Origin: Flaccisagitta enflata | Lineage: Eukaryota | Direction of reading: 5' to 3' | Length of the DNA stretch: 64,000 nt | Assembly: GCA_965153355.1 (NCBI GenBank) | Contig: OZ231126.1 | Coordinates: 7,502,001 to 7,566,000 of the forward strand | Notes under the pieces: generated by a model | What the model saw: the letters and a program-made list of their open reading frames with translations, nothing else | What the model was told of the DNA's origin: nothing | Database searches by the model: none | Shown here: positions 28,999 through 58,179 of the stretch, piece by piece | How positions within the stretch are numbered: position 1 is the stretch's first letter | How the letters are laid out: every line of letters starts with the position of its first letter | Translations under genes and position numbers: made by a program

Positions 28999-29010
28999 CG
29001 CCCCCCAGAT

Positions 29011-29239: not shown

Positions 29240-29258
29240 GTTGGGTTAGGGTTAGGGT
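29011..29258 (+). repeat. Telomeric tract 2 (largely degenerate TTAGG/TTAGGG)
   Basis: G/T-rich TTAGG(G) variants, near-perfect at the right edge. Confidence 0.88.
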
Positions 29259-30126: not shown

Positions 30127-30129
30127 AAT

Positions 30130-30141
30130 TGGTGACTCCCG
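30130..30141 (+). promoter_or_regulatory. Primer-binding site, tRNA-Trp-like (also 40460, 50733, 61073 and 28488-28499 on -)
   Basis: TGGTGA(CT/G)CCCG 1-3 nt after each 5' LTR; resembles the tRNA-Trp PBS TGGTGACCCCGAC. Confidence 0.8.
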
Positions 30142-37733: not shown

Positions 37734-38021
37734 AGTAGTTTTCCGGTTATGTAGTCTCCGATCTTTCTTTCATTAACTTTTACCGTGTTGTAGCAAAGTG
37801 TCCAGTGGTAAGACCCACTATAAAAAGTATGTAATTCTCTACTCACTTTCGTTAGTGTACAACGGTCTCCGATATCTTCATATATGTCAATTTATCGATC
37901 GCGTGTTTATCTATCCTTAATATCCATGACTTAATTTTTTACATCATCTCGCTTAAGTAGTGTTCATCACGTCTTTATTAGACTGCTACTTCTCTGTGAT
38001 TTTTCTCTCGTTCATATACAG

Positions 38022-38032
38022 TCTAGGGGGCG
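38022..38032 (+). promoter_or_regulatory. Polypurine tract TCT(A/G)GGGGGCG (also 19239, 47894, 58169 and 21590-21600 on -)
   Basis: Conserved 11-mer abutting every 3' LTR. Confidence 0.88.
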
Positions 38033-39147: not shown

Positions 39148-40456
39148 TGTGGCCATTGGCCTAAGTATGGTGTCTCAATCTCATTTGCATAATGTCGTCA
39201 TGTTATACTCCATCATGTTCCTCACCTCATTTCCTTTCCAATGGTGTAAGTCTCATGTTTATGGTGTCAGCGGTTCATGAGTTATGGCCCATCAATGGTT
39301 GACATCTCATTTACATATTGTGGCGTCGTTACATTTCGTTATTAATAATTTCACTCGGTCTGATTCTGAATCTGATGTCTGTTTTTGTCTATCTGCTTCC
39401 TGTCAAAAGATAGCAGACCGATGGGGACATGTTCTTAGCCTATGAGCGGCCAGTCCCTTGGGGGTGGGCCTCATTGGATATGCCTTGCATATTGTGGCGA
39501 CGTTAATGAGCTTAGAGATGGCTTTACTCCTCTCATTAACTCCTTACAGCTTACTACAAAATATAGGGCCCAGGCACAAGCCCTATACATATTTACCTTC
39601 CTGATGGCCGATCCAGTCTATGTTTATAGAGCTGATAAGCTCTGCAGGCACCTGGATTCGATCCCTGGACCTTTGGACCCAGAGCTCTCTCCCTTACCGA
39701 TGTCGCCACGGCGGCTGCATGGATAGAGCTGCCAAAGCTTAGGGTGGTTCTCCCTTTACTCTGTTTTCCTTTGTTTCTCCTCCCTGTTTCTTCTAAGTTT
39801 TCCTCATTACATACTGTGCCCATAGTTGTGCTTATGCTATCGCCATGAAATTTTATGTGTATGTAGTATGATGTTAGAGAAAAGGTTTGGCGTCTCTTGT
39901 TTCATGATTTTATGGACAGGCTTAGTGCCCCTGCCCTTTAACTTCTTTTAGAATTATCTCTATCTCTCACTTTTGCTTAATTAAGTATTCAAGCCTTTTG
40001 TTTGCTTGTCTTTTGATAGAAGGATTTGCCTTCTCTTATTTTGGGTTCAATTGATCATTTGTCATCAGGTCATGTGATGTCCCCTCGTCCCCTCCTGGTC
40101 ACATGACCCTCCCAAAATGGCTGCCGCCATGGCAGGCAGCATGGCCAGACTGTTTAGCTGTGGGAAATAATTCTATCATTCTGGTTCTTGTTTTTTAGTC
40201 TGGATAGACTATAGTCTTCGCTCCTGTTTTTATTTTATTGCTTGAATAAATAACTTTGTATCTGAATAAGACTTTGTGCTATTATTAAAAGGGCTAGCAG
40301 CCCTCTAACTCTGCGAGTACCCCCGTGGGGTACCTATGGACTTGTGGCTACGCCACTGACCCTGTCCATAGTCTTATGGATTGCCAAAAGACTCAAAGGC
40401 ATTAATATCGCAATGGTAGACTTTGGAGTCATCTACCACTTTTGGGAATCGCTACA
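39148..40456 (+). repeat. 5' LTR of element D (1309 bp)
   Basis: TGTGGC..GCTACA, followed by AAT+PBS. Confidence 0.95.
39643..39719 (-). ncRNA. tRNA-like module in the D/E LTRs (also 48400-48476, 49917-49993, 58675-58751)
   Basis: A box TGGCGACAT(C/T)GG, B-box variant GGATCGAATCC, closed by TGCAG/CTGCA. Confidence 0.5.
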
Positions 40457-41827
40457 AATTGGTGACTCCCGTCTCAAAGACAAGAGTTACGTTCTCTCCA
40501 ACCTTCTGACATCGTGGTGACGACGTCGACGACGAGCTGCTGCAGCAGCATCAACCTGACTGTTACAAAACAAGTGTACAGACCAGAAACAACATTACCC
40601 TTGTGTTCTCTCTTCAACAACTTCGTCATCAAGGGCACCACCTCGTCGACACCGTCCCCAGCATCGAGTGGCGTCAACAACATCGTCGACAGCCTCTCCA
40701 AATCGCCTACGACGTCCACAGCCCAACATCCTCGTCCACGACGTCGTCAGCACTCAGCAAAGAACAGGAGTCTCGAGACTGGGCTGGGCTTCGGTCAGCT
40801 GTCTTGGGCGAAGCTGGACTCGTCCTGGCCTGTGGGATTTGGCCACTAAGGAGGACTCCGGCGCCAGTTCCTCGCATCCACACGTTGGGTGAGCCGGAAG
40901 TGTCATTGTAACCCTTTAATGTTACAACCTTGACAAGAAACCTCCACCAACAGACAGACATTAACAGCTTAACACATTTTATTGATGCTGTTTCTTCCCA
41001 TGTCTTTTACTTCCGCATGTTCTCGGTCACGGACCCTTCCACGAGTTCAATCGGCTCCCACAACGCCTCGAGAGCTTCCCCACGACACCACGATCCTTTC
41101 CAACGTCTTCAACATCCGTAGACATCCGTTGGCTTCACATCTCGAAGCCCACGCCTCTCAATCCGCATCCCAACGAAGTTGACCATCAATTGGACTCTTT
41201 AACGACTTCAGACGCCTTCAGACTCGTGCAGCATCGTCTCCCACGGGTCCCCACGTCCACGACGACGCCCCAACACCTCGCCAACGTCTCCGTGACGCCT
41301 ACGACGTCGAGCTGCTGCTGCAACCCTGCTGTCTTCGCGAGCTTCGACGCCAACGTCCACCTTCGAATTCGAAAAGCGAAAGACGATTTCGAGCGCCTCG
41401 AAAAGGCACTTCCGGTCGGAGTTGAAGGACAAAAATTTCAGGGATGGTAGACGGCACCCTCGACTACGTTGTATTAAAATTTGGTGACCGTCGGACGACT
41501 ACTTCGCGTTCTCGATCAAATTGAAAACATAGGCGCTTTTCGAAGGCAAAAACGAGGATTTTTTCGCCGAGGGAATTTTCTGCCTTCCTCTAGTTGCAAT
41601 TTGACGCCCTTTGGAACATAACAACTAGACTACCTGAAGTACTTGGGATTCAAATTTCATGCCAATCGGTCTGCAGGTTCGGCCGCAACAGCTCGCCGAA
41701 AACGAAGTTCGAACTTCGCCTTTTTACAACAACATTTCAACTCGTCTATCCATTTTTACTTCATATGTATTCTCTAGAAGTACATAGCCTCGCTTTTATT
41801 TCAACAACATATCCTCCCGTGATATAA

Positions 41828-43132
41828 ATGAGTGGACAACGCCATCATCCCCACATCTCGGACGCTGCCTTCACCCCTTTCCAACACCTGATACCTACAC
41901 TTCCGGCCAACACGGACGGCTACATTGACAGCCTTCTCGCTTCGCCTCCACTTCAACCACGCCTTCAGGGCATGGACATTGATCAAAACAATCTCCAACA
42001 GTCACAGGCAGCAGCAACAACAATGGAGTTCACTCAGGAGAAGTTCATGCAACTGCAAGCGTTAGCAGAGAGACAAGCTAAGATGCTTGAGGATGGAAAT
42101 GCCTTTCAAAATGAAGCAGCTCGAAAGCTGCAAGATTCTCAACGCCAGTTGGAGGAAACCCAACGAAATCTCACAGATCTCACTGCTGCCTTCAACTCCC
42201 TCTCGACACAAGGTCGTCCTCTCACCGTCACTTCCGCTCCCAAGAAGAAGCCGGACCTCCCCGCCTTTGACAGCAAAAATGTCCTGGTGTGGATACGCAG
42301 AGTAGAGGCTGCTTACCGTCGAGCAGGGGTCATTGACCCCAAGGATAAATTCGCGTGGATGGAAAGCATTTTCCAGGTCAAACTCGATCCACAAATAGAC
42401 GCTTACTTGTATGGAGAAAATACAGCTCAAGATTGGGACGACTTTATCTCTTATCTTAAGAAGCAGTACGGTCCAACCATCCGCCAAAAGGCGCAGAAGC
42501 TCCTAGGAGACATTCCACGCCACGACTTGAAGCCTTCTCAATGGCTCCTTCAGCTCAAAGACGACACTAAAGACGTCGAGCTCGACCACATCCTTCGAGA
42601 ACATCTGCTCAAGACGATTCCTCCGCGAATAAGAGAGATAATGGGAAAGGAGGTGGAAGAAATGTCGTCAGAGGAAGTGGCTAAGATGGCGGACACATTC
42701 TTCGATCGCCAAGGCAAACCAGCTGAAAAGCAATCCACATCCATCAACAACGTCATGGCCTCTTCAACAGCTTCTGCCACTCCTCCTCCTCCTCGAGCCT
42801 CCTCCTCGACACCCTTCACACAAGCCTTCAGTGACGACGACGATGGCGACATCAACCACGTCAGAGGGGGAAGATTTCCAGGAAATGGTGGAAACCGTGG
42901 AAATAACAACAGAGGTCCTCGCAGCAAGAGCAGAAGCAACTTCACTCGCGCCCCAACATCTTCGTCAACGACTTCATCCTCCAATAACTCACAAACCAAG
43001 CAAGCAGGATTGTGTAGATGGCATAGAAAGTTTGGCGACAAGGCCCTGAAATGCCTCTCTGATTGTTCTCGTCATTCCACCTTCATGGCCTCACAAAACT
43101 CGGGAAACGGCCAGGGAGGACGCCGACAGTGA
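41828..43132 (+). CDS. gag: Gag of element D
   Basis: 434 aa; KPDLPAFD..WIRR; CRWHRKFGDKALKCLSDC. Confidence 0.95.
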   Translation: MSGQRHHPHISDAAFTPFQHLIPTLPANTDGYIDSLLASPPLQPRLQGMDIDQNNLQQSQAAATTMEFTQEKFMQLQALAERQAKMLEDGNAFQNEAARKLQDSQRQLEETQRNLTDLTAAFNSLSTQGRPLTVTSAPKKKPDLPAFDSKNVLVWIRRVEAAYRRAGVIDPKDKFAWMESIFQVKLDPQIDAYLYGENTAQDWDDFISYLKKQYGPTIRQKAQKLLGDIPRHDLKPSQWLLQLKDDTKDVELDHILREHLLKTIPPRIREIMGKEVEEMSSEEVAKMADTFFDRQGKPAEKQSTSINNVMASSTASATPPPPRASSSTPFTQAFSDDDDGDINHVRGGRFPGNGGNRGNNNRGPRSKSRSNFTRAPTSSSTTSSSNNSQTKQAGLCRWHRKFGDKALKCLSDCSRHSTFMASQNSGNGQGGRRQ

Positions 43133-46100
43133 ACGCGGCCACCCCCTCCTCTTCATCATCATCAAAAAATGATTTATTATTCGTTCACGACGTCACTACG
43201 CGCCAGAAATGGTTAATAGATGGGGGCGCTGTCCTATCCATCGTCCCTCCCACATACGCTCAACGTTTAAATGGCCATTCAAATATGCAGCTGCAGGCTG
43301 CAAACGGCTCGAGGATCAAGTGCTTTGGAGTTAGGCAGATGCCAATACACCTGCCAGGGCGAAAATTCTCTTTTCCAGTGACGATTGCAGACGTCAAACA
43401 GCCAATCCTAGGGGCTGATTTTTTGGCTAAAAATTACTTGGCCCCAAACCATAGGGATGGTACCCTAATCGACCTCAAAGACATGTCGACTATCAAAGTG
43501 GATTTTGAAGATAAGGCTGAGCCTATACGCGTGAACCACGTCAGTCAGGCGACAAACCCTTACTACAAGCTCCTGGATGGAAAATTCCCGGACCTTTCCA
43601 ATCCCACTTTCAAGGTCAAAGACGTCGACCACGGGGTTTATCATTATATACCCACAGAAGGCCCCCCAGTGCAAGCAAGGGCCCGTAAACTGGACCCAGA
43701 AAAGTTAGCTGTGGCCAAGGCTGAACTGGATAAGTTGGTTGAATTGGGAGTTTGCGAGAGGGGCAAATCAGATTGGTCCTCACCCCTACTCGTCACAACA
43801 AAGCCTTGTAATTCGCCCTGCACTTGCGAACAAGAAAAACCTTGTGGCGGATGGCGGGTCTGTGGAGACTATCGAAGGCTCAATGACCTTACCACAGACG
43901 ACCGCTACCCTGTAAGAAACTTACAAGATTTCAACGCTGATCTTAGAGGCAAAACAATTTTTAGCAAAGTGGATTTGTTAAAAGGGTATCATCAAATCCC
44001 TGTATACCCTGATCATGTGAAAAAAACTGCCGTCATAACGCCATTTGGCCTCTACCTCTTTCCACGCTGCCCCTTTGGCCTTAAAAATGCTGGCCAGGAT
44101 TTCCAGCGACTCATGGACAAGATCCTCGGCGACATACCTCACACTTTCGTCTATTTGGACGATATTTTAATTGCCTCATCATCACCAGCTGAGCACCTCG
44201 AGGACCTCACGCGCGTCTTCACCATCCTGGAAGAGAATGGTCTTGTCGTAAATCGCAAGAAGTGCATTCTTGGTGAAAGTTCCATCGAGTTTTTAGGCCA
44301 CCTTTGCGACGCCCACGGCATCAAGCCATTGCCATGTAAAGTAGAGGCCATCAAAAAAGTTCAGCCACCAACAACAATTAAAGAATTGCAGCGTTTCTTG
44401 GGCATGATTAATTATTATCGCCGTTTTATAAAATCTGCCGCCCACCACCTCTACCACCTCTTCGACGCCCTCGGCTCCAAGCCAAAGCGCCTTCTATGGT
44501 CAACAGAGATGCAGGCCTCATTCGAGGCCATCAAGAACGCCCTCGCGAATGCAACAATGTTACACCATCCGGACTCGTCTCTTCCACTGGCTCTTACTAC
44601 AGATGCCTCAGATGTAGCCATTGGAGCTGTTCTGGAGCAAAGAGGCCCCAACGGATGGGAACCTCTGGCGTTCTTTTCCAAAAAATTGTCGGATTCTCAG
44701 CAGAAATGGTGCCCCTACGACCGTGAACTGCATGCTGTGCACAAGGCAGTCCGCCATTTTAAGTACATGGTCGAGGGAAGAGCCTTCACGATCTATACAG
44801 ATCACCAGAGTTTGGTGCCTTCGATGTCAAAGAAGACTGAGGCCCAAACAGCTCGCCAAGCCAATCAACTTTCCGAAATTAGCGAGTATTCTACTGACAT
44901 ACGCTATTTAGAGGGCAAGAGTAACGTTGTGGCTGACGCCCTCTCGAGGCCTAATGGTAAGCAAGAACCTCCTACAGTCAGCAACATCTCGCCAACTTAT
45001 TCCTCCATGCCCCAACATGTTTTCTGTCAAGACATCAACCGCATGAGAGACGAAGGAATTCTGGGAATTCATCAAGTTGGTTATGAAGAAGAGGAAGATG
45101 ATGAACCTGAAGTCGAAGAGTATAGACCAGAGGAAGATGAAGAGATCGAGGAAGAATGGGAAACAGAGGCAAACTCTGACTTCTTTGACGAAATGGAAGT
45201 GAGGTACAATAAGCTCAAAGCTTGTTCTCGTCAACCAACACCCTCAGGGGCTCTCACTCCGTCTCCTTCTTCCAACACTGCTTCCTCTGCAACTTCGTCG
45301 TCAACACCCTCAGTGGCTCTCACTCCGCCTTCTTCTTCCAACACTGCTCCCTCTGCAACTCCGTCATCAACACCCTCAGTGGCTCTCCCTCCGTCGCCTT
45401 CTTCTAACTCAGCTTTCTCTGCAACCTCGTCAACTCCAGCAAAAAGCAACCCGGCTAAGCAGGTCTCATTTGCACCAATCATCTCGTCAGTCTCTCGACC
45501 TCCAGAGTCTCCTTCAATGAACAACGACGAGTGGCTTCAACATCTTGAAAGAATCTGCAGCCAGGGACAACCACCTCAGCCTTCACCTCCACCAACGCAG
45601 CAACAGTCCTCTCCTCCAATCCCTAAAGGTTATAAACCAGTTCCAGAGGAAAAGATTGAGGATCTTCAACTGCTGGTCAATTCAGTCAGCCACTTTGCCA
45701 TCGATTTGGAAGACATGGCGCGCCAACAGGCTTTAGACCCAGAGCTGAGAACGCTGAGAAGAGACGCAAGAACTGGACTCAGTTTCAGAAAGGTTAAGGT
45801 TGGGGCAACATACTTGTTTGTGGACGTTTCGAATGGCCCTGCCCGCCCCTTCGTGCCACTGTCTTATCGCCGAAGGATATTTAATGTTATCCACAATTTG
45901 GGGCATCCAGGAGTCGAAAGGACTCGCCAAACCATAACTGACAAATTCGTTTGGCCTAATATTAGGCAGGACGTGTGCAAGTGGGCACGAGAGTGTGTGG
46001 CCTGCCAACAGGCCAAAATTCAACGCCATGTGGTACCACCCATAGCAGAATTCTCCGTCCCACCAAAACGCTTTCAACATATCCACCTGGATTTGGTGTC

Positions 46101-46994
46101 CATGCCTCCATCCAATGGCTTTGACCACTTGTTAACTATTGTGGACCGCTTCTCAAGGTGGCCAGCAGCCATACCCATCGCCAACATCAGCGCTGAGACG
46201 GTCATAGATGCATTGACACATGGATGGATTGCAAACTACGGCGTCCCTGAAGTGATAACTACGGACCGAGGCAGCCAATTTTCGGCTCAAATATTCACCC
46301 AGCTTCTTGAAAATTGGGGCATTCGCCACATCGCCACAACAGCTTATCATCCGGAATCAAACGGAATGGTGGAGCGACTACATCGTCGTCTCAAAGAGAG
46401 CCTAATTGCTTTGGGCAGGGGAGAAAGGCTTCTTTGGTTTTGGAAACTGCCCATGTCATTACTGGCGCTAAGGACAACAATGAAGCCTGACTTAGGTTCC
46501 TCCCCAGCTGAACTTGTGTATGGAGAAGGCCTCACTGTGCCTGGCCAACTGATTGGGCCACCAAACCTTTCGGATGAAGAGCTTCTTCAGCAACAGCGAG
46601 CGACTCGAAACAACCTAAGGGTTGAAGTAGAACGTCTACAGCCAACTGCAACATCAGCCCATCGTGCTCCTAGGGTTAACATACCGGACGAACTCGCCAC
46701 TGCAACACACGTGTTAGTAAGAAAAGGTTTGCAGCAATCGCTTACAGCACCGTATGAAGGCCCTTTCGAGGTAGTCTCCAGACATGCGAATGGTTTCCGC
46801 CTACGCTTCCCAGGCAGGGGCACGGACATAGTCGCCCTGTCAAGACTAAAGCCAGCAATCATCGCACCGGAAGAAGAACGTGATGAGGAGGATAATAACG
46901 ATGTCACACCGCCATCTCCACCTCCTCCAGGTCGCCCTCCTGGTGTAAGAACGCGTCTTCCGGCTCCAACTTCCCGTCAGACACGCAGCTCGAC

Positions 46995-47038
<44 letters not shown>

Positions 47039-47550
47039 TCCGTCAGCAACAGCAGCAACAGCAGCAACAACAGTCGTCGACTCATGAGCCCAACAGCAGC
47101 TCGGGTGACTCGCAGATCCCGTGCTCTTCTCGCAGCGTTCCTGGAGAGCCCATTCCGGACTCACCACCTCCTCCTCCTCCTCCTTGTCGTCGTCAACGTC
47201 AGCGTCAACGTGACCCATCGCCGGAGCAACTGACAGACCCGACAGGCAGAGTCGAGTACCAGGACGATCCCAACCTCGCTCCATGCCCAACTCCTCAACA
47301 GGAACAGGCCTTAGCAGAGGCTTTTCCACATCAACCGGACCCGCTCAATCGTGATCCAAGAGACTTGGACCAGCCCTTGGTCCCTCCTACGCCATCCAAC
47401 TCTACTGCCAACGATGGTAACGCTCAAGGGGGCGTCAACAGGAAGAAAAAGACACTCTCATTTTCAAATCCAAAGAAGGGCCACTTCTCGTACCGTAGGC
47501 CCCGTCCTGACATAAACTTCCTTCGCCAAGTCATGAACGAGCTCAATTAA
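43063..47550 (+). CDS. pol: Pol of element D, -1 frameshift entry near 43102
   Basis: 1495-aa open frame with all PR, RT, RNase H and IN motifs. Confidence 0.97.
45238..45435 (+). repeat. Three ~66-bp coding tandem repeats (TPSxALxPxxSSNxAxSATxSS) in the RNase H-IN linker of D (same in E, about 55513-55710)
   Basis: ACACCCTCAG(G/T)GGCTCTC recurs every 66 bp. Confidence 0.85.
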
Positions 47551-47904
47551 TGTAGGTCACATTTTTACATTACTCTTTATTTAACAATTCCGTGGTAATA
47601 GCGTCATCTATCTTCCTTCTCGAGTGACAGTACAGTTGCTCTTTTGTTCTCTGATTAGTAGCGTCATCTATCTCATTTTTCTTTGTAGTAGCGTCATGTT
47701 ATCTCCACTGAGTGACAGTACAGTCCCTCAACTTTGCCGAGTGGTCAGGGCACTATAAACCTGGTAGGCTTTATATTTTACTTGCGTAGTATCGCAGAGG
47801 ACGCAACCTCTATAAAAAAAGATTACTAACCGTCATATCATGTTCACTCACGTCTTTTGAGTAGATTGTTCCCGTTCGTAACCCCGTACACAATCTAGGG
47901 GGCG

Positions 47905-49212
47905 TGTGGCCATTGGCCTAAGTATGGTGTCTCAATCTCATTTGCATAATGTCGTCATGTTATACTCCATCATGTTCCTCACCTCATTTCCTTTCCAATG
48001 GTGTAAGTCTCATGTTTATGGTGTCAGCGGTTCATGAGTTATGGTGCATCAATGGTTGACATCTCATTTACATATTGTGGCATCATTACATTTCATTATT
48101 GATAATTTCACTCGGTCTGATTCTGAATCTGATGTCTGTTTTTGTCTATCTGCTTCCTGTCAAAAGATAGCAGACCGATGGGGTCATGTTCTTAGCCTAT
48201 GAGCGGCCAGTCCCTTGGGGGTGGGCCTCATTGGATATGCCTTGCATATTGTGGCGACGTTAATGAGCTTAGAGATGGCTTTACTCCTCTCATTAACTCC
48301 TTACAGCTTACTACAAAATATAGGGCCCAGGCACAAGCCCTATACATATTTACCTTCCTGATGGCTGATCCAGTCTATGTTTATAGAGCTGATAAGCTCT
48401 GCAGGCACCTGGATTCGATCCCTGGACCTTTGGATCCAGAGCTCTCTCCCTTACCAATGTCGCCACGGCGGCTGCATGGATAGAGCCGCCAAAGCTTAGG
48501 GTGGTTCTCCCTTTCTCTGTTTTCCTTTGTTTCTCCTCCCTGTTTCTTCTAAGTTTTCCTCATTACATACTGTGCCCATAGTTGTGCTTATGCTATCGCC
48601 ATGAAATTTTATGTGTATGTAGTATGATGTTAGAGAAAAGGTTTGGCGTCTCTTGTTTCATGATTTTATGGACAGGCTTAGTGCCCCTGCCCTTTAACTT
48701 CTTTTAGAATTATCTCTATCTCTCACTTTTGCTTAATTAAGTATTCAAGCCTTTTGTTTGCTTGTCTTTTGATAGAAGGATTTGCCTTCTCTTATTTTGG
48801 GTTCAATTGATCATTTGTCATCAGGTCATGTGATGTCCCCTCGTCCCCTCCTGGTCACATGACCCTCCCAAAATGGCTGCCGCCATGGCAGGCAGCATGG
48901 CCAGACTGTTTAGCTGTGGGAAATAATTCTATCATTCTGGTTCTTGTTTTTTAGTCTGGATAGACTATAGTCTTCGCTCCTGTTTTTATTTTATTGCTTG
49001 AATAAATAACTTTGTATCTGAATAAGACTTTGTGCTATTATTAAAAGGGCTAGCAGCCCTCTAACTCTGCGAGTACCCCCGTGGGGTACCTATGGACTTG
49101 TGGCTACGCCACTGACCCTGTCCATAGTCTTATGGATTGCCAAAAGACTCAAAGGCATTAATATCGCAATGGTAGACTTTGGAGTCATCTACCACTTTTG
49201 GGAATCGCTACA
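47905..49212 (+). repeat. 3' LTR of element D (1308 bp), followed by a PBS copy (49213-49235)
   Basis: After PPT; ends GCTACA then AATTGGTGACTCCCGTCTCAAAG. Confidence 0.95.
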
Positions 49213-49235
49213 AATTGGTGACTCCCGTCTCAAAG

Positions 49236-49421
49236 GTTAGGGTTAGGGTTAGGGTTAGGTTAGAGTTGTGGTTAGGTGAGCTAGTTGTGGGCAGCATCAG
49301 GCTGAGTTAGAAGGCAAGTGCAGGCCAGGCCAGGTTAGGTTGTGGTTAGGTTAAGGGTTAAAGGGCTTAGGGTTAGGGTTAGGGTTAGGGTTAGGGTTAG
49401 GGTTAGGGTTAGGGTTAGGGT
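49236..49421 (+). repeat. Telomeric tract 4
   Basis: GTTAGGG repeats at both edges; CAGGCCAGGCCAGG in the centre. Confidence 0.9.
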
Positions 49422-50729
49422 TGTGGCCATTGGCCTAAGTATGGTGTCTCAATCTCATTTGCATAATGTCGTCATGTTATACTCCATCATGTTCCTCACC
49501 TCATTTCCTTTCCAATGGTGTAAGTCTCATGTTTATGGTGTCAGCGGTTCATGAGTTATGGCCCATCAATGGTTGACATCTCATTTACATATTGTGGCAT
49601 CGTTACATTTCGTTATTAATAATTTCACTCGGTCTGATTCTGAATCTGATGTCTGTTTTTGTCTATCTGCTTCCTGTCAAAAGATAGCAGACCGATGGGG
49701 ACATGTTCTTAGCCTATGAGCGGCCAGTCCCTTGGGGGTGGGCCTCATTGGATATGCCTTGCATATTGTGGCGACGTTAATGAGCTTAGAGATGGCTTTA
49801 CTCCTCTCATTAACTCCTTACAGCTTACTACAAAATATAGGGCCCAGGCACAAGCCCTATACATATTTACCTTCCTGATGGCCGATCCAGTCTATGTTTA
49901 TAGAGCTGATAAGCTCTGCAGGCACCTGGATTCGATCCCTGGACCTTTGGACCCAGAGCTCTCTCCCTTACCGATGTCGCCACGGCGGCTGCATGGATAG
50001 AGCTGCCAAAGCTTAGGGTGGTTCTCCCTTTCTCTGTTTTCCTTTGTTTCTCCTCCCTGTTTCTTCTAAGTTTTCCTCATTACATACTGTGCCCATAGTT
50101 GTGCTTATGCTATCGCCATGAAATTTTATGTGTATGTAGTATGATGTTAGAGAAAAGGTTTGGCGTCTCTTGTTTCATGATTTTATGGACAGGCTTAGTG
50201 CCCCTGCCCTTTAACTTCTTTTAGAATTATCTCTATCTCTCACTTTTGCTTAATTAAGTATTCAAGCCTTTTGTTTGCTTGTCTTTTGATAGAAGGATTT
50301 GCCTTCTCTTATTTTGGGTTCAATTGATCATTTGTCATCAGGTCATGTGATGTCCCCTCGTCCCCTCCTGGTCACATGACCCTCCCAAAATGGCTGCCGC
50401 CATGGCAGGCAGCATGGCCAGACTGTTTAGCTGTGGGAAATAATTCTATCATTCTGGTTCTTGTTTTTTAGTCTGGATAGACTATAGTCTTCGCTCCTGT
50501 TTTTATTTTATTGCTTGAATAAATAACTTTGTATCTGAATAAGACTTTGTGCTATTATTAAAAGGGCTAGCAGCCCTCTAACTCTGCGAGTACCCCCGTG
50601 GGGTACCTATGGACTTGTGGCTACGCCACTGACCCTGTCCATAGTCTTATGGATTGCCAAAAGACTCAAAGGCATTAATATCGCAATGGTAGACTTTGGA
50701 GTCATCTACCACTTTTGGGAATCGCTACA
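49422..50729 (+). repeat. 5' LTR of element E (1308 bp)
   Basis: Nearly identical to the D 5' LTR; followed by PBS. Confidence 0.95.
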
Positions 50730-52102
50730 AATTGGTGACTCCCGTCTCAAAGACAAGAGTTACGTTCTCTCCAACCTTCTGACATCGTGGTGACGACGTC
50801 GACGACGAGCTGCTGCAGCAGCATCAACCTGACTGTTACAAAACAAGTGTACAGACCAGAAACAACATTACCCTTGTGTTTTATCTTCAACAACTTCGCC
50901 ATCAAGGGTACCATCTCGTCGACAACGTCCCCAGCATCGAGTGGCGTCAACAACATCGTCGACAGCCTCTCCAAATCGCCTACGACGTCCACAACCCAAC
51001 ATCCTCGTCCACGACGTCGCCAACATCAAAGAAAAGAACAGGAGTCTCGAGACTGGGCTGGGCTTCGGTCAGCTGTCCCGGGCGAAGCTGGACTCGTCCT
51101 GGCCTGTGGGATTTGGCCATCAAGGAGGTCTCCGGCGCCAGTTCCTCGCATCCACACGTTGGGTGAGCCGGAAGTGTCACTGTAATACTTTAATTTACAG
51201 CCTTGACAAAGAAACCTCCACCAACCGACAGACATTAACAGCTTTTCACATTGTATTAATGCTGTTTCTTCCCATGCCATTTACTTCCGCATGTACTCGG
51301 TTACGGTCCCTTCCACGACTTCAATCGACTCCCACAACGCCTCGAGAGCTTCCCCACGACGCCACGATCCGTTCCAACGTCTTCAGCATCCGCAGACACC
51401 CTTTGGCTTCACTCCTCGAAGCCCACGCCTCGCCATTCGCATCCCAACGAAGTTAACCATCAATTGGACTCTCAAACGACTTCAGACGTCTTCAGACACG
51501 TGCAGCATCGTCTCCCACGGGTCCCCACGTCCACGACGACGTCCCAACACCTCGCCAACGTCTCCGTGACGCCCACGACGTCGAGCTGCTGCTGCAACCC
51601 TGCTGTCTTCGCGAGCTTCGACGCCAACATCCACCCTTCGAATTCGAAAAGCGAAAGACGATTTCGAGCGCCTCGAAAAGGCACTTCCGGTCGGAGTTGA
51701 AGGACAAAAATTTCAGGGATGGTAGACGGCACCCTCGACTACGTTGTATTAAAATTTGGTGACCGTCGGACGACTACTTCGCGTTCTCGATCAAATTGAA
51801 AACATAGGCGCTTTTCGAAGGCAAAAACGAGGATTTTTTCGCCGAGGGAATTTTCTGCCTTCCTCTAGTTGCAATTTGACGCCCTTTGGAACATAACAAC
51901 TAGACTACCTGAAGTACTTGGGATTCAAATTTCATGCCAATCGGTCTGCAGGTTCGGCCGCAACAGCTCGCCGAAAACGAAGTTCGAACTTCGCCTTTTT
52001 ACAACAACATTTCAACTCGTCTATCCATTTTTACTTCATATGTATTCTCTAGAAGTACATAGCCTCGCTTTTATTTCAACAACATATCCTCCCGTGATAT
52101 AA

Positions 52103-53407
52103 ATGAGTGGACAACGCCATCATCCCCACATCTCGGACGCTGCCTTCACCCCTTTCCAACACCTGATACCTACACTTCCGGCCAACACGGACGGCTACAT
52201 TGACAGCCTTCTCGCTTCGCCTCCACTTCAACCACGCCTTCAGGGCATGGACATTGATCAAAACAATCTCCAACAGTCACAGGCAGCAGCAACAACAATG
52301 GAGTTCACTCAGGAGAAGTTCATGCAACTGCAAGCGTTAGCAGAGAGACAAGCTAAGATGCTTGAGGATGGAAATGCCTTTCAAAATGAAGCAGCTCGAA
52401 AGCTGCAAGATTCTCAACGCCAGTTGGAGGAAACCCAACGAAATCTCACAGATCTCACTGCTGCCTTCAACTCCCTCTCGACACAAGGTCGTCCTCTCAC
52501 CGTCACTTCCGCTCCCAAGAAGAAGCCGGACCTCCCCGCCTTTGACAGCAAAAATGTCCTGGTGTGGATACGCAGAGTAGAGGCTGCTTACCGTCGAGCA
52601 GGGGTCATTGACCCCAAGGATAAATTCGCGTGGATGGAAAGCATTTTCCAGGTCAAACTCGATCCACAAATAGACGCTTACTTGTATGGAGAAAATACAG
52701 CTCAAGATTGGGACGACTTTATCTCTTATCTTAAGAAGCAGTACGGTCCAACCATCCGCCAAAAGGCGCAGAAGCTCCTAGGAGACATTCCACGCCACGA
52801 CTTGAAGCCTTCTCAATGGCTCCTTCAGCTCAAAGACGACACTAAAGACGTCGAGCTCGACCACATCCTTCGAGAACATCTGCTCAAGACGATTCCTCCG
52901 CGAATAAGAGAGATAATGGGAAAGGAGGTGGAAGAAATGTCGTCAGAGGAAGTGGCTAAGATGGCGGACACATTCTTCGATCGCCAAGGCAAACCAGCTG
53001 AAAAGCAATCCACATCCATCAACAACGTCATGGCCTCTTCAACAGCTTCTGCCACTCCTCCTCCTCCTCGAGCCTCCTCCTCGACACCCTTCACACAAGC
53101 CTTCAGTGACGACGACGATGGCGACATCAACCACGTCAGAGGGGGAAGATTTCCAGGAAATGGTGGAAACCGTGGAAATAACAACAGAGGTCCTCGCAGC
53201 AAGAGCAGAAGCAACTTCACTCGCGCCCCAACATCTTCGTCAACGACTTCATCCTCCAATAACTCACAAACCAAGCAAGCAGGATTGTGTAGATGGCATA
53301 GAAAGTTTGGCGACAAGGCCCTGAAATGCCTCTCTGATTGTTCTCGTCATTCCACCTTCATGGCCTCACAAAACTCGGGAAACGGCCAGGGAGGACGCCG
53401 ACAGTGA
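52103..53407 (+). CDS. gag: Gag of element E
   Basis: 434 aa, same translation as D Gag in the ORF track. Confidence 0.95.
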   Translation: MSGQRHHPHISDAAFTPFQHLIPTLPANTDGYIDSLLASPPLQPRLQGMDIDQNNLQQSQAAATTMEFTQEKFMQLQALAERQAKMLEDGNAFQNEAARKLQDSQRQLEETQRNLTDLTAAFNSLSTQGRPLTVTSAPKKKPDLPAFDSKNVLVWIRRVEAAYRRAGVIDPKDKFAWMESIFQVKLDPQIDAYLYGENTAQDWDDFISYLKKQYGPTIRQKAQKLLGDIPRHDLKPSQWLLQLKDDTKDVELDHILREHLLKTIPPRIREIMGKEVEEMSSEEVAKMADTFFDRQGKPAEKQSTSINNVMASSTASATPPPPRASSSTPFTQAFSDDDDGDINHVRGGRFPGNGGNRGNNNRGPRSKSRSNFTRAPTSSSTTSSSNNSQTKQAGLCRWHRKFGDKALKCLSDCSRHSTFMASQNSGNGQGGRRQ

Positions 53408-56400
53408 ACGCGGCCACCCCCTCCTCTTCATCATCATCAAAAAATGATTTATTATTCGTTCACGACGTCACTACGCGCCAGAAATGGTTAATAGATGGGG
53501 GCGCTGTCCTATCCATCGTCCCTCCCACATACGCTCAACGTTTAAATGGCCATTCAAATATGCAGCTGCAGGCTGCAAACGGCTCGAGGATCAAGTGCTT
53601 TGGAGTTAGGCAGATGCCAATACACCTGCCAGGGCGAAAATTCTCTTTTCCAGTGACGATTGCAGACGTCAAACAGCCAATCCTAGGGGCTGATTTTTTG
53701 GCTAAAAATTACTTGGCCCCAAACCATAGGGATGGTACCCTAATCGACCTCAAAGACATGTCGACTATCAAAGTGGATTTTGAAGATAAGGCTGAGCCTA
53801 TACGCGTGAACCACGTCAGTCAGGCGACAAACCCTTACTACAAGCTCCTGGATGGAAAATTCCCGGACCTTTCCAATCCCACTTTCAAGGTCAAAGACGT
53901 CGACCACGGGGTTTATCATTATATACCCACAGAAGGCCCCCCAGTGCAAGCAAGGGCCCGTAAACTGGACCCAGAAAAGTTAGCTGTGGCCAAGGCTGAA
54001 CTGGATAAGTTGGTTGAATTGGGAGTTTGCGAGAGGGGCAAATCAGATTGGTCCTCACCCCTACTCGTCACAACAAAGCCTTGTAATTCGCCCTGCACTT
54101 GCGAACAAGAAAAACCTTGTGGCGGATGGCGGGTCTGTGGAGACTATCGAAGGCTCAATGACCTTACCACAGACGACCGCTACCCTGTAAGAAACTTACA
54201 AGATTTCAACGCTGATCTTAGAGGCAAAACAATTTTTAGCAAAGTGGATTTGTTAAAAGGGTATCATCAAATCCCTGTATACCCTGATCATGTGAAAAAA
54301 ACTGCCGTCATAACGCCATTTGGCCTCTACCTCTTTCCACGCTGCCCCTTTGGCCTTAAAAATGCTGGCCAGGATTTCCAGCGACTCATGGACAAGATCC
54401 TCGGCGACATACCTCACACTTTCGTCTATTTGGACGATATTTTAATTGCCTCATCATCACCAGCTGAGCACCTCGAGGACCTCACGCGCGTCTTCACCAT
54501 CCTGGAAGAGAATGGTCTTGTCGTAAATCGCAAGAAGTGCATTCTTGGTGAAAGTTCCATCGAGTTTTTAGGCCACCTTTGCGACGCCCACGGCATCAAG
54601 CCATTGCCATGTAAAGTAGAGGCCATCAAAAAAGTTCAGCCACCAACAACAATTAAAGAATTGCAGCGTTTCTTGGGCATGATTAATTATTATCGCCGTT
54701 TTATAAAATCTGCCGCCCACCACCTCTACCACCTCTTCGACGCCCTCGGCTCCAAGCCAAAGCGCCTTCTATGGTCAACAGAGATGCAGGCCTCATTCGA
54801 GGCCATCAAGAACGCCCTCGCGAATGCAACAATGTTACACCATCCGGACTCGTCTCTTCCACTGGCTCTTACTACAGATGCCTCAGATGTAGCCATTGGA
54901 GCTGTTCTGGAGCAAAGAGGCCCCAACGGATGGGAACCTCTGGCGTTCTTTTCCAAAAAATTGTCGGATTCTCAGCAGAAATGGTGCCCCTACGACCGTG
55001 AACTGCATGCTGTGCACAAGGCAGTCCGCCATTTTAAGTACATGGTCGAGGGAAGAGCCTTCACGATCTATACAGATCACCAGAGTTTGGTGCCTTCGAT
55101 GTCAAAGAAGACTGAGGCCCAAACAGCTCGCCAAGCCAATCAACTTTCCGAAATTAGCGAGTATTCTACTGACATACGCTATTTAGAGGGCAAGAGTAAC
55201 GTTGTGGCTGACGCCCTCTCGAGGCCTAATGGTAAGCAAGAACCTCCTACAGTCAGCAACATCTCGCCAACTTATTCCTCCATGCCCCAACATGTTTTCT
55301 GTCAAGACATCAACCGCATGAGAGACGAAGGAATTCTGGGAATTCATCAAGTTGGTTATGAAGAAGAGGAAGATGATGAACCTGAAGTCGAAGAGTATAG
55401 ACCAGAGGAAGATGAAGAGATCGAGGAAGAATGGGAAACAGAGGCAAACTCTGACTTCTTTGACGAAATGGAAGTGAGGTACAATAAGCTCAAAGCTTGT
55501 TCTCGTCAACCAACACCCTCAGGGGCTCTCACTCCGTCTCCTTCTTCCAACACTGCTTCCTCTGCAACTTCGTCGTCAACACCCTCAGTGGCTCTCACTC
55601 CGCCTTCTTCTTCCAACACTGCTCCCTCTGCAACTCCGTCATCAACACCCTCAGTGGCTCTCCCTCCGTCGCCTTCTTCTAACTCAGCTTTCTCTGCAAC
55701 CTCGTCAACTCCAGCAAAAAGCAACCCGGCTAAGCAGGTCTCATTTGCACCAATCATCTCGTCAGTCTCTCGACCTCCAGAGTCTCCTTCAATGAACAAC
55801 GACGAGTGGCTTCAACATCTTGAAAGAATCTGCAGCCAGGGACAACCACCTCAGCCTTCACCTCCACCAACGCAGCAACAGTCCTCTCCTCCAATCCCTA
55901 AAGGTTATAAACCAGTTCCAGAGGAAAAGATTGAGGATCTTCAACTGCTGGTCAATTCAGTCAGCCACTTTGCCATCGATTTGGAAGACATGGCGCGCCA
56001 ACAGGCTTTAGACCCAGAGCTGAGAACGCTGAGAAGAGACGCAAGAACTGGACTCAGTTTCAGAAAGGTTAAGGTTGGGGCAACATACTTGTTTGTGGAC
56101 GTTTCGAATGGCCCTGCCCGCCCCTTCGTGCCACTGTCTTATCGCCGAAGGATATTTAATGTTATCCACAATTTGGGGCATCCAGGAGTCGAAAGGACTC
56201 GCCAAACCATAACTGACAAATTCGTTTGGCCTAATATTAGGCAGGACGTGTGCAAGTGGGCACGAGAGTGTGTGGCCTGCCAACAGGCCAAAATTCAACG
56301 CCATGTGGTACCACCCATAGCAGAATTCTCCGTCCCACCAAAACGCTTTCAACATATCCACCTGGATTTGGTGTCCATGCCTCCATCCAATGGCTTTGAC

Positions 56401-57269
56401 CACTTGTTAACTATTGTGGACCGCTTCTCAAGGTGGCCAGCAGCCATACCCATCGCCAACATCAGCGCTGAGACGGTCATAGATGCATTGACACATGGAT
56501 GGATTGCAAACTACGGCGTCCCTGAAGTGATAACTACGGACCGAGGCAGCCAATTTTCAGCTCAAATTTTCACCCAGCTTCTCGAAAATTGGGGCATTCG
56601 CCACATCGCCACAACAGCTTATCATCCGGAATCAAACGGAATGGTGGAGCGCCTACATCGTCGCCTCAAGGAGAGCCTAATTGCTTTGGGCAGGGGAGAA
56701 AGGCTTCTTTGGTTTTGGAAACTGCCCATGTCATTACTGGCGCTAAGGACAACAATGAAGCCTGACTTAGGTTCCTCCCCAGCTGAACTTGTGTATGGAG
56801 AAGGCCTCACTGTGCCTGGCCAACTGATTGGGCCACCAAACCTTTCGGATGAAGAGCTTCTTCAGCAACAGCGAGCGACTCGAAACAACCTAAGGGTTGA
56901 AGTAGAACGTCTGCAGCCAACTGCAACATCAGCCCATCGTGCTCCTAGGGTTAACATACCGGACGAACTCGCCACTGCAACACACGTGTTAGTAAGAAAA
57001 GGTTTGCAGCAATCGCTTACAGCACCGTATGAAGGCCCTTTCGAGGTAGTCTCCAGACATGCGAATGGTTTCCGCCTACGCTTCCCAGGCAGGGGCACGG
57101 ACATAGTCGCCCTGTCAAGACTAAAGCCAGCAATCATCGCACCGGAAGAAGAACGTGATGAGGAGGATCATAATGATGTCACACCGCCATCTCCACCTCC
57201 TCCAGGTCGCCCTCCTGGTGTAAGAACGCGTCTTCCGGCTCCAACTTCCCGTCAGACACGCAGCTCGAC

Positions 57270-57313
<44 letters not shown>

Positions 57314-57825
57314 TCCGTCAGCAACAGCAGCAACAGCAGCAACAACAGTCGTCGACTCATGAGCCCAACAGCAGCTCGGGTGACTCGCAGATCCCGTGCT
57401 CTTCTCGCAGCGTTCCTGGAGAGCCCATTCCGGACTCACCACCTCCTCCTCCTCCTCCTTGTCGTCGTCAACGTCAGCGTCAACGTGACCCATCGCCGGA
57501 GCAACTGACAGACCCGACAGGCAGAGTCGAGTACCAGGACGATCCCAACCTCGCTCCATGCCCAACTCCTCAACAGGAACAGGCCTTAGCAGAGGCTTTT
57601 CCACATCAACCGGACCCGCTCAATCGTGATCCAAGAGACTTGGACCAGCCCTTGGTCCCTCCTACGCCATCCAACTCTACTGCCAACGATGGTAACGCTC
57701 AAGGGGGCGTCAACAGGAAGAAAAAGACACTCTCATTTTCAAATCCAAAGAAGGGCCACTTCTCGTACCGTAGGCCCCGTCCTGACATAAACTTCCTTCG
57801 CCAAGTCATGAACGAGCTCAATTAA
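53338..57825 (+). CDS. pol: Pol of element E, -1 frameshift entry near 53377
   Basis: 1495 aa; the only difference from D that I spotted is EEDNND versus EEDHND. Confidence 0.97.
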
Positions 57826-58179
57826 TGTAGGTCACATTTTTACATTACTCTTTATTTAACAATTCCGTGGTAATAGCGTCATCTATCTTCCTTCTCGAGT
57901 GACAGTACAGTTGCTCTTTTGTTCTCTGATTAGTAGCGTCATCTATCTCATTTTTCTTTGTAGTAGCGTCATGTTACTTTCACTGAGTGACAGTACAGTC
58001 CCTCAACTTCGTCGAGTGGTCAGGGCACTATAAACCTGGTAGGCCTTATATTTTACTTGCGTAGTATCGCAGAGGACGCAACCTCTATAAAAAAAGAATA
58101 CTAACCGTCATATCATGTTCACTCACGTCTTTTGTTTAGATTGTTTCCGTTCGCAACCCCGTACACAATCTAGGGGGCG

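What the first reader, a model, noticed from the sequence alone, without database searches (positions are those of the whole stretch)
49213..49260. Element D 3' LTR is followed by PBS and leader sequence, then GGTTAG repeats
Seen: GCTACA is followed by AATTGGTGACTCCCGTCTCAAAG, matching 40457-40479 after the 5' LTR, then GTTAGGGTTAG without the GGGT duplication. This mirrors B and is again on the distal side. The match extends beyond the 12 nt shared with family C, so it seems to come from element DNA rather than the tRNA. Inference: an LTR-shared tandem or circular intermediate was truncated, or an unprocessed end was healed by de novo telomere addition; the GGTTAG register matches what vertebrate-type telomerase adds.
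Basis: partly seen in the sequence, partly recalled or inferred. Interest (0 to 1): 0.78.

Follow-up and report, generated by a model that had tools for sequence, protein, structure and literature searches.

The report
LTR element end keeps primer site
One copy of a telomere-targeting LTR retrotransposon carries 23 extra bases of its own primer-binding region after its downstream repeat and lacks the usual target duplication, most likely the scar of a faulty one-ended insertion that was sealed with telomere repeats.

Summary
The 3' LTR of element D1 (47905-49212) is followed by 23 bases (49213-49235). These are identical to the 23 bases after its 5' LTR (40457-40479): spacer AAT, primer-binding site, start of the leader. 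GTTAGGG repeats follow, with no GGGT target duplication.

The window is a head-to-tail array of Ty3/gypsy-type elements, all inserted at one register of (TTAGGG)n: 8 canonical joints and 2 aberrant ones. The second aberrant joint, in inverted element B, is the mirror image. It carries 12 bases of polypurine-tract sequence outside the U3 end, also on the distal side.

Best reading (about 0.5): a cDNA whose one end ran past the LTR into the primer site could not be processed by integrase. The good end was joined normally to the C-rich strand. The bad end was capped by the host, either by telomerase or by joining to telomeric DNA. HIV and MLV show the same kind of scar in cell culture.

Rivals are a truncated LTR-sharing tandem or recombination with a 5' LTR (about 0.25), and an assembly artefact (about 0.1). 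Public reads could neither confirm nor refute the junction. Whether telomerase made the distal repeats is not shown. The junction is a variant of known aberrant integration. I found no published report of the telomere-repeat-specific LTR family around it.

The parts
39148..40456 (+). D1 5' LTR (1309 bases, TG...CA), joined to telomere repeats at the canonical ...TTAGGGT|TG site
   Evidence: self-BLAST; junctions; lengths
40457..40479 (+). Source copy of the 23 bases: spacer AAT, primer-binding site starting TGG (12 bases, TGGTGACTCCCG, shared with family C), and the first 8 bases of the leader
41828..43132 (+). D1 putative gag ORF (434 aa; no Pfam family)
43063..47550 (+). D1 pol ORF (1495 aa) in the Ty3/gypsy order RT - RNase H - integrase. 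A weak protease match was seen only in the C paralogue.
   Evidence: Pfam; homologues; atlas
47892..47904 (+). D1 polypurine tract block AATCTAGGGGGCG directly before the 3' LTR. The block is conserved in A, B, C and D.
47905..49212 (+). D1 3' LTR (1308 bases). It differs from the D1 5' LTR at 12 columns, all in LTR columns 141-611.
49213..49235 (+). The finding: a 23-base exact copy of 40457-40479 outside the 3' LTR. The U5 CA is buried 21-23 bases from the joint and there is no GGGT duplication.
49236..49421 (+). Spacer D1>D2: 24 perfect telomere bases, about 107 degenerate G/T-rich bases, then 55 perfect bases up to the D2 5' LTR
49422..59487 (+). D2, a sibling copy with both joints canonical (GGGT|TG ... 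CA|GGGT). It is identical to D1 over 41500-46249 of D1 but differs in patches.
21092..21589 (-). B 3' LTR (498 bases). Its U5 end is joined to the proximal telomere tract at the same GGGT|TG phosphodiester that other elements use for their U3 end.
21590..21601 (-). B polypurine tract (ATCTGGGGGGCG in B's orientation), the internal source copy
28501..28998 (-). B 5' LTR (498 bases, 100% identical to 21092-21589)
28999..29010 (-). Mirror case: a 12-base copy of B's polypurine tract outside the U3 end of the 5' LTR, on the distal side, followed at once by degenerate telomere repeats with no duplication
29259..38899 (+). C, a control element with canonical joints and GGGT duplication (LTRs 868 bases, 99.77% identical)

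Best explanation
D1 is the product of a faulty, one-ended integration.

(1) The elements here are Ty3/gypsy-type LTR retrotransposons. Their integrase joins the U3 end to the C-rich strand and the U5 end to the G-rich strand of (TTAGGG)n at one fixed register, which gives a GGGT duplication. This is shown by the sequence.

(2) In the D1 event the plus strand at the right end of the cDNA did not stop at U5 plus AAT. It ran on through the primer-binding site and 6-8 bases into the leader. The likeliest route is a second, abortive plus-strand transfer: the PBS tail annealed to PBS-leader minus-strand DNA and was extended briefly. This would be the first steps of the template switch that makes LTR-sharing 'complex' elements. 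This step is inferred.

(3) With the conserved CA 21-23 bases from the end, integrase could not process or join that end. Only the U3 end was joined, at the canonical GGGT|TG site. The first part is inferred; the canonical joint is seen.

(4) A single strand transfer links an element to the centromere side only through the C-rich strand. The unprocessed end therefore has to point distally. It was then capped by the host. Either telomerase extended ...CTCAAAG, or the end was joined to telomeric DNA with 1-2 bases of microhomology. This step is inferred and the two routes cannot be told apart here.

B is the same accident at the other end. Its U3 end kept 12 bases of polypurine-tract primer sequence. 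Its good U5 end took the C-strand site. That also explains why B is the only inverted element.
For: - Exact 23-base copy, no duplication, canonical proximal joint.
- 8 of 10 element-telomere joints in the window are canonical and in one register, from 6 insertions. The chance of one shared phase is about (1/6)^5 (own count).
- The 2 aberrant joints are both distal. One sits at the PBS side of U5 (D1, 23 bases). The other sits at the PPT side of U3 (B, 12 bases, inside the 15-base block conserved in A, B, C and D).
- Random breakage inside a second unit would end this close to an LTR with probabilities 23/7448 and 12/6911, jointly 5e-6 (post hoc).
- B's two LTRs plus the 12 bases are 100% identical over 510 bases, as expected for one reverse-transcription product.
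- Precedent from passages read in PMC2797772: HIV-1 and MLV proviruses with the unprocessed dinucleotide plus 2, 4, 11 or 15 bases of PBS at the 3' junction. PPT sequence was seen at 5' junctions. There was 1-4 bases of microhomology. In 3 of 3 proviruses recovered with both ends, the other junction was normal.
- Precedent from the Background and passages read in PMC5041404: when one viral end is a poor substrate, integrase inserts the good end and host enzymes insert the other, sometimes with extra viral sequence.
- From the abstract of PMC1950507: template switching during reverse transcription can make elements that share an LTR.
Against: - The last 8 bases of the extension lie beyond what C and D share. 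Position 16 of the putative PBS is C, which would need G61 in the tRNA, whereas tRNAs carry C61 (recalled tRNA architecture, from no call). Simple retention of the tRNA primer therefore does not explain all 23 bases, and an extra step on element DNA is needed.
- The LTRs of D1 are not identical. They differ at 12 columns, all in columns 141-611. Three of these states are shared with the D2 3' LTR, and at column 1177 the D1 3' LTR carries the 5'-LTR state. D1 and D2 are mosaics. DNA-level recombination has clearly acted here and could have made the junction.
- Only 24 perfect bases follow the joint before degenerate sequence. This does not look like a fresh telomerase product.
- If the ends were healed by telomerase, B must be older than C, D1, D2 and E. 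Yet B has the most similar LTRs (0 differences in 498 bases against 2 in 868 for C). This is weak: 0 of 498 is compatible with the rate seen in C.
- No second genome copy, no host tRNA set and no read-level check were available.
Confidence: 0.5

Rival explanations
1. DNA-level origin. The 3' LTR of D1 recombined with, or copied by break-induced replication from, a 5' LTR and its leader. That made an LTR-sharing tandem (LTR-internal-LTR-internal...). The chromosome then broke or eroded 23 bases into the second unit, and the end was healed by telomerase or recombined with a telomere tract.
For: - The extension is element sequence beyond the stretch shared with C.
- The D1 3' LTR looks chimeric. 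It carries 3'-type states at columns 531, 552 and 583 (shared with the D2 3' LTR) but the 5'-type state at column 1177, and it is identical to the 5' LTRs from column 612 on.
- D1 and D2 are mosaics with 0 differences over 41500-46249 and dense patches elsewhere, so recombination or conversion is active in this array.
- LTR-sharing complex elements are known (PMC1950507, abstract).
Against: - A break at a random place in 7448 bases ends within 23 bases of the LTR with p = 0.003. The independent B case has p = 0.0017.
- No element truncated further inside and capped by repeats is seen in the window.
- Column 1177 is a single site and may be private to the D2 3' LTR, which has 21 private states.
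- B's LTRs show no sign of exchange: they are 100% identical.
Confidence: 0.25
2. Assembly or polishing artefact. Reads from the 5' LTR-leader boundary (for B, from the PPT-3' LTR boundary) were laid on the other LTR and overwrote the first bases of a poorly mappable telomeric flank.
For: - Short overwritten stretches of 12 and 23 bases, made of the internal flank, are what mis-laid short reads would produce.
- D1 and D2 are suspiciously identical over 5 kb.
- The junction could not be confirmed in public data: no contig of 4 runs lies on 49250-49366.
Against: - Overwriting without a length change would leave the repeats in phase. After 23 overwritten bases the tract should continue AGGGTTAGGG, but it continues GTTAGGG, a shift of 3 bases. 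B is out of phase as well (own count).
- 8 of 10 comparable LTR boundaries in the same window are clean.
- The two aberrant joints obey a biological rule (distal side, primer sites, inverted orientation of B) that an artefact would not follow.
Confidence: 0.1
3. Pure primer retention. The tRNA was not removed, and the plus strand copied AAT plus the 18 3'-terminal bases of the tRNA. The remaining AG belongs to a variant telomere repeat (AGG TTAGGG).
For: - AAT plus 18 bases gives 21, and the last two bases (AG) can be read as telomeric.
- 18 bases is the classical length of the tRNA copy in plus-strand strong-stop DNA (recalled).
- Proviral junctions carrying part of the PBS are documented (PMC2797772).
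Against: - Families C and D share only 12 bases after AAT, so at most one of them can be complementary over 18.
- D's positions 13-18 would require a tRNA T-stem with G61, which is non-canonical (recalled, from no call).
- No host tRNA was available: 0 tRNA genes in the window and no genome is held.
Confidence: 0.1

Closest known systems
Aberrant retroviral provirus junctions that retain PBS or PPT sequence (HIV-1 and MLV in DNA-repair-deficient cells, PMC2797772; passages read)
   Same: The 3' junction keeps the bases that integrase normally removes, plus part of the PBS. The 5' junction can keep PPT sequence. The other junction of the same provirus is normal. A few bases of microhomology lie at the aberrant joint, and the duplication is abnormal.
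   Different: - Here it is a germline-fixed Ty3/gypsy-type element in a telomere array, not a cell-culture infection.
- The extension (20 bases after the spacer) is longer than the 15 reported, and runs past the part likely to pair with the tRNA.
- The partner DNA is telomere repeat, so capping by telomerase is an option.
One-ended integration: integrase inserts the good end, host enzymes the other (ASLV end mutants, HIV with integrase inhibitors or mutants; PMC5041404, Background and passages read)
   Same: One canonical joint and one non-canonical joint, with extra viral sequence possible at the aberrant end.
   Different: In those experiments the second end is joined inside a chromosome, with deletions or duplications of host DNA. 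Here the target is the chromosome-terminal repeat, so loss of the distal part is harmless, and the geometry forces the bad end to face distally.
Complex LTR retrotransposons that share an LTR (template switching or unequal recombination; PMC1950507, abstract read)
   Same: An LTR followed again by PBS and leader is the start of such a structure.
   Different: Only 23 bases of a second unit exist. There is no third LTR and no duplication around the whole.
Telomere-specific retrotransposons: SART/TRAS of silkworm, HeT-A/TART/TAHRE of Drosophila, and Ty5 of yeast (review PMC4700185, passages read)
   Same: Elements confined to chromosome ends, in head-to-tail arrays interspersed with, or replacing, telomere repeats.
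   Different: SART/TRAS and HeT-A/TART/TAHRE are non-LTR elements that use target-primed reverse transcription. Ty5 is an LTR element but is tethered to Sir4 heterochromatin and is not sequence-specific. The elements here are LTR elements with an integrase-type 4-base duplication at one fixed position of TTAGGG.
De novo telomere addition (chromosome healing)
   Same: Telomere repeats begin directly on non-telomeric sequence ending in AG or G.
   Different: The tract is not terminal in the assembly, is perfect for only 24 bases, and is followed by further elements. Healing is possible but not shown.

Membership tests
Ty3/gypsy-type (Metaviridae) LTR retrotransposon | Two direct long terminal repeats with TG...CA ends | tested here: met
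   D1 LTRs are 1309 and 1308 bases, 99.1% identical, TGTGG...GCTACA
Ty3/gypsy-type (Metaviridae) LTR retrotransposon | pol domain order RT - RNase H - integrase | tested here: met
   Pfam RVT_1 at 259-413, RT_RNaseH_2 at 479-577, Integrase_H2C2 at 931-986, rve at 1002-1097 in the 1495-aa ORF
Ty3/gypsy-type (Metaviridae) LTR retrotransposon | PBS complementary to a host tRNA 3' end next to the 5' LTR; PPT before the 3' LTR | tested here: inconclusive
   A TGG-initiated stretch lies 3 bases after the LTR, and a G-rich PPT block is conserved in A, B, C and D. No host tRNA was available.
Ty3/gypsy-type (Metaviridae) LTR retrotransposon | Short target-site duplication | tested here: not met
   For D1 itself there is none. 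It is met for the siblings D2 and C (GGGT). The element is a member; this insertion is non-canonical.
Aberrant one-ended retroviral-type integration with primer-site retention | One junction canonical, the other keeps unprocessed terminal bases plus PBS (U5 end) or PPT (U3 end) | tested here: met
   D1: GGGT|TG at U3, and CA+AAT+PBS... at U5. B: canonical at U5, and 12 bases of PPT at U3.
Aberrant one-ended retroviral-type integration with primer-site retention | No regular target duplication; microhomology at the aberrant joint | tested here: met
   No GGGT repeat. There is an overlap of 1-2 bases (G or AG) between leader and repeat in D1, and 1 base (T) in B. An overlap this short is also expected by chance.
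Aberrant one-ended retroviral-type integration with primer-site retention | The extension is a copy of the primer (tRNA or PPT RNA) | tested here: inconclusive
   B: the 12 bases lie inside the conserved PPT block. D1: 12 bases fit the stretch shared with C, and 8 more bases are family-specific leader.
LTR-sharing complex (tandem) element | Three LTRs and two internal regions, flanked by one duplication | tested here: not met
   Only 23 bases of a second unit are present. The next LTR (49422) is preceded by 186 bases of telomere-like spacer and has its own canonical joints.
Sequence-specific telomere-repeat retrotransposon | All insertions at one position of the telomere repeat | tested here: met
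   8 of 10 joints are at TTAGGGT|..|GGGTTAGGG, across families A/D, B, C and E. 56 of the 57 (TTAGGG)3 matches are on the + strand.
De novo telomere addition | A perfect, terminal repeat tract that starts at the break | tested here: inconclusive
   24 perfect bases, then degenerate sequence; the tract is internal in the assembly

The most novel reading that the evidence does not exclude
These are LTR retrotransposons that build chromosome ends. Their integrase is specific for one phosphodiester of the telomere repeat. A sizeable share of events (2 of 6 here) are one-ended. In these the element is tied to the C-rich strand, the old distal telomere is discarded, and the unprocessed cDNA end itself becomes the new chromosome terminus, on which telomerase then builds. 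That would make an LTR-type counterpart of HeT-A/TART or of the terminal Penelope-like elements. The PBS and PPT overhangs would be the readable record of each terminal attachment.
Probability: 0.2. Interest if true: 0.8.

Novelty: new variant of a known kind. Interest (0 to 1): 0.55.

Why it matters
Scars of failed integrase processing are known from retroviruses in cultured cells. They are rarely readable in natural genomes, because the second end is joined somewhere in unique DNA with rearrangements. In a telomere the broken distal part is dispensable. One-ended events therefore survive, and they leave a clean record of what the cDNA end looked like. Here the scars suggest that the plus strand can start a second transfer into the leader.

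The setting may matter more than the scar. At least four diverged Ty3/gypsy-type families insert at the same base of TTAGGG. Five literature searches found only non-LTR elements and the chromatin-tethered Ty5 described as telomere-specific. If the distal ends were healed by telomerase, the array would also give the order of insertion events and a natural system in which to study interplay between integrase and telomerase.

Tried and rejected
- **Read validation.** The look-up of sequencing runs listed 23 runs, of which 20 hold part of 47000-49700. Only 1 holds at least half of the words (X1, 0.58). Two runs are of 'organism A' and the rest are marine or aquatic metagenomes. Read laying on 48600-49366 with X1, X6, X2 and X3 returned only short contigs. 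Depth was 0 in all 4 runs from 49250 to 49366, and the tool skipped repeats at 49228-49269. The junction is therefore neither confirmed nor refuted. Contigs that reach 49224 say nothing, because the 5' LTR-leader boundary has the same letters.
- **Junction in metagenome contigs.** The 28-base junction word gave 0 hits.
- **LTR end plus PBS word** ACAAATTGGTGACTCCCG in metagenome contigs gave 8 loci. 0 of 8 contain a 12-base telomere word. L006, read in full, is a gene-flanking repeat and not an LTR element. I dropped L006 and L007 as PBS comparators.
- **pol against viral contigs.** 607 pattern matches, 0 confirmed.
- **Whole genome and host tRNAs.** No genome is held. There are 0 tRNA genes in the window and 0 in L006 and L007.
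- **Targeting domain.** No Pfam family at E <= 0.001 in the RNase H-integrase linker (321 aa), the tail after the integrase core (398 aa) or gag (434 aa). The tail has a GPY/F-like stretch (motif name recalled) and then P/Q-rich low complexity. No fold was run.
- **Hairpin that might stall synthesis at +23.** Folds of 40440-40560 were not better than shuffles: DNA minus strand z = -0.60, RNA z = -1.24. The small GTCT-CAA-AGAC palindrome at the break is noted but carries no weight.
- **Papers not held.** Two J Virol papers on ASLV PBS and PPT mutants. Their content is cited only through PMC5041404.

Full report
**What is in the window**

(TTAGGG)3 with at most one mismatch occurs 57 times, against 0 in shuffles. 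56 of these are on the + strand, in blocks at about 20.6, 21.1, 29.2, 38.9, 39.1, 49.2, 49.4 and 59.5 kb. The + strand is therefore the G-rich strand and the right side is distal.

Between these blocks lie LTR elements (self-BLAST, junctions):
- A: a 5'-truncated relative of D, 17358 to about 20652.
- B: LTR repeats 21092-21601 and 28501-29010, 100% identical over 510 bases, with ORFs on the minus strand.
- C: LTRs 29259-30126 and 38033-38899, 99.77% identical.
- D1: LTRs 39148-40456 and 47905-49212.
- D2: LTRs 49422-50729 and 58180-59487.
- E: starts at 59690 and runs off the window.

The pol ORFs of B, C and D carry RVT_1, RNase H, Integrase_H2C2 and rve in that order, which is the Ty3/gypsy type. 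The D pol has 658 relatives at E <= 0.001 among 8000 scored candidates. The best is 75% identical, and all of the 120 listed are unnamed proteins from metagenome or run assemblies. A feature search places it among Ty3/gypsy clusters of animals. Runs that hold the D sequence are two runs of one coded organism and marine or aquatic metagenomes.

**Site specificity**

Every intact joint has the same register.
- On the left it reads ...TTAGGGT|TG (TA in C): B, C, D1, D2 and E.
- On the right it reads CA|GGGTTAGGG: A, C and D2.

C and D2 show both sides, which gives a 4-base duplication GGGT. That makes 8 canonical joints of 10, from six insertions of at least four diverged families (the PBS and LTR sequences differ). 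Five of the six elements have the same orientation. Five full-text searches found telomere-specific elements described only as non-LTR elements, plus Ty5, which is tethered to heterochromatin (review PMC4700185, passages). I found no report of an LTR element specific for the telomere repeat itself. Absence from this library is not proof.

**The observation**

The D1 3' LTR ends ...GAATCGCTACA at 49212. The next 23 bases, AATTGGTGACTCCCGTCTCAAAG (49213-49235), equal 40457-40479 and 50730-50752, the bases after the 5' LTRs of D1 and D2. GTTAGGGTTAGGG... follows, and there is no GGGT duplication.

The 23 bases are a 3-base spacer (AAT), a TGG-initiated primer-binding site, and the start of the leader. 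Family C shares AAT plus 12 bases and then differs. The final G or AG could belong to either partner.

B's exact repeat of 510 bases is a 498-base LTR plus 12 bases. In B's orientation these read ATCTGGGGGGCG, its polypurine tract. They lie inside a 15-base block conserved before the 3' LTRs of A, B, C and D. The extra copy sits outside B's 5' LTR, on the distal side, followed by degenerate repeats and no duplication. B's other end, U5, is joined at the canonical GGGT|TG position.

**What it most likely is**

The two aberrant joints share four properties:
- Each sits at one of the two priming sites of reverse transcription.
- Each is short (23 and 12 bases).
- Each faces the distal side.
- The opposite end of each element is canonical.

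If they were remnants of a second unit cut at random, the chances of ending so close to the LTR would be 23/7448 and 12/6911, jointly about 5e-6. This figure is post hoc but large enough to matter.

The pattern is the one described for aberrant proviruses. In HIV-1 and MLV, 3' junctions can keep the unprocessed dinucleotide plus 2, 4, 11 or 15 bases of PBS, and 5' junctions can keep PPT sequence. Microhomology of 1-4 bases was seen, and the other junction was normal in the 3 of 3 proviruses recovered whole (PMC2797772, passages). When one end is a poor substrate, integrase inserts the good end and host enzymes the other (PMC5041404, Background and passages).

A geometric argument then explains the side. 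Integrase joins a viral 3' OH to a target 5' phosphate. The only single strand transfer that ties the element to the centromeric part of the chromosome is therefore the one into the C-rich strand, and the free end of the element must point distally. Either viral end can do this. If U5 does it, the element comes out inverted. B is inverted, and it is the only inverted element. With n = 2 this is suggestive and not significant.

**Where the simple version fails**

Plain retention of the tRNA primer would add AAT plus a copy of the tRNA 3' end. Families C and D share only 12 bases there. D's position 16 would also demand G61 in the tRNA, where tRNAs have C61. This rests on recalled tRNA architecture, since no host tRNA was available. 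At least the last 5-8 bases were therefore templated by element DNA.

The least costly addition is that the PBS tail of the right-end plus strand annealed once more to PBS-leader minus-strand DNA and was extended by a few bases. That would be the start of the template switch proposed to create LTR-sharing complex elements (PMC1950507, abstract). This step is inference.

**The capping step is open**

After the joint come 24 perfect bases, then about 107 degenerate G/T-rich bases, then 55 perfect bases before D2. The spacers after the canonical 3' joints of A and C have the same three-part layout. The spacer after D2 is perfect throughout. The flank of D1 therefore looks like ordinary target DNA as much as like a new telomere.

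If the ends were healed by telomerase, everything distal must be younger. B would then be older than C, D1, D2 and E, yet B has the most similar LTRs. That is weak evidence against healing, because 0 differences in 498 bases is compatible with the rate of 2 in 868 seen in C.

**Evidence for DNA-level recombination**

This evidence keeps the rival alive.
- D1 and D2 are identical over 41500-46249 but differ at 57 columns in 40500-41499 and 38 columns in 47500-48499.
- The two 5' LTRs differ at 2 columns only.
- The D1 3' LTR has 7 private states and shares 3 with the D2 3' LTR.
- The D2 3' LTR has 21 private states, 16 of them in columns 25-112.
- At column 1177 the D1 3' LTR carries the 5'-LTR state.

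LTRs are identical at birth, so exchange after insertion has occurred. Alternatively the elements were born from mixed particles, as recombinant LTR elements are in Arabidopsis (PMC5668417, abstract). A crossover between the D1 3' LTR and a 5' LTR with its leader is compatible with these data. It does not explain why the second unit ends after 23 bases, or why B shows the mirror form with perfectly identical LTRs.

**Artefact**

Mis-laid reads from the internal LTR boundary could overwrite a short stretch of a telomeric flank. Overwriting would keep the repeat phase, however. After 23 bases the tract should continue AGGGTTAGGG, and it continues GTTAGGG, three bases out of phase. The other 8 boundaries are clean.

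Public data could not settle it. Only short contigs were available, none lies on 49250-49366, and the tool skipped the repeat at 49228-49269. The junction word is absent from the metagenome contig collection.

**Verdict**

My estimates are:
- about 0.5 for the one-ended integration reading;
- 0.25 for tandem or recombination followed by truncation;
- 0.1 for an artefact.

The junction is a natural variant of a known kind of integration error. The telomere-repeat-specific LTR family around it looks like the more novel object.

Noticed in passing
window 17358-64000 (joints listed): At least four diverged Ty3/gypsy-type families (A/D, B, C, E) insert at the same base of TTAGGG with a GGGT duplication, and form a head-to-tail array. 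Five literature searches found no description of an LTR element specific for the telomere repeat.
   Followed up: partly
window 20653-21091, 29011-29258, 38900-39147, 49236-49421: Four of the five inter-element spacers contain degenerate G/T-rich units (GCCAGG, GCTAGG, GTTGTG, GGTTAGG) and end in a perfect run of 36-55 bases before the next element. Three of them (A>B, C>D1, D1>D2) also begin with a perfect TTAGGG run. B>C is degenerate from its first base. The fifth spacer (59488-59689) is perfect throughout. The origin of the degenerate middle parts is unexplained.
   Followed up: partly
window 39000-59720: D1 and D2 are mosaics: 0 differences over 41500-46249, dense patches at 40500-41499 (57 columns) and 47500-48499 (38 columns). 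Their 5' LTRs differ at 2 columns, while each differs from its own 3' LTR at 12 and 24 columns. The cause could be gene conversion, recombinant reverse transcription, or haplotype or polishing effects.
   Followed up: partly
window 14941-15036: A degenerate telomere-like tract in the opposite orientation (CCCTAA-like on the + strand) lies proximal to the array. It may be an old inverted end or part of another element.
   Followed up: no
window 44890-45852 and 46354-47547 (D1 pol): About 320 aa lie between RNase H and integrase, including three 22-aa repeats (66-base tandem repeat at 45228-45432). About 400 aa follow the integrase core, with a GPY/F-like stretch (motif name recalled), poly-Q and a basic C-terminus. 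Neither region matches any Pfam family. The determinant of telomere-repeat targeting is not evident.
   Followed up: partly
window 49216 (run X1, table 7): One contig of the coded organism reads a D-like LTR end plus AAT and then goes on unlike the window, with about 21 other bases followed by CCCTAACC (a C-strand telomere repeat). It may be another non-canonical U5 joint elsewhere in that genome. It is a single contig and was not examined further.
   Followed up: no
window 40462-40487: The 3' half of the PBS and the next leader bases form an imperfect inverted repeat (ACTCCCGTCT CAA AGACAAGAGT), and the D1 extension ends 2 bases into its second arm. The folds are not better than shuffles.
   Followed up: yes
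window 31089-31537: A 171-base tandem repeat (2.6 copies, 81% matches) lies in the long leader of element C, upstream of its gag-like ORF.
   Followed up: no
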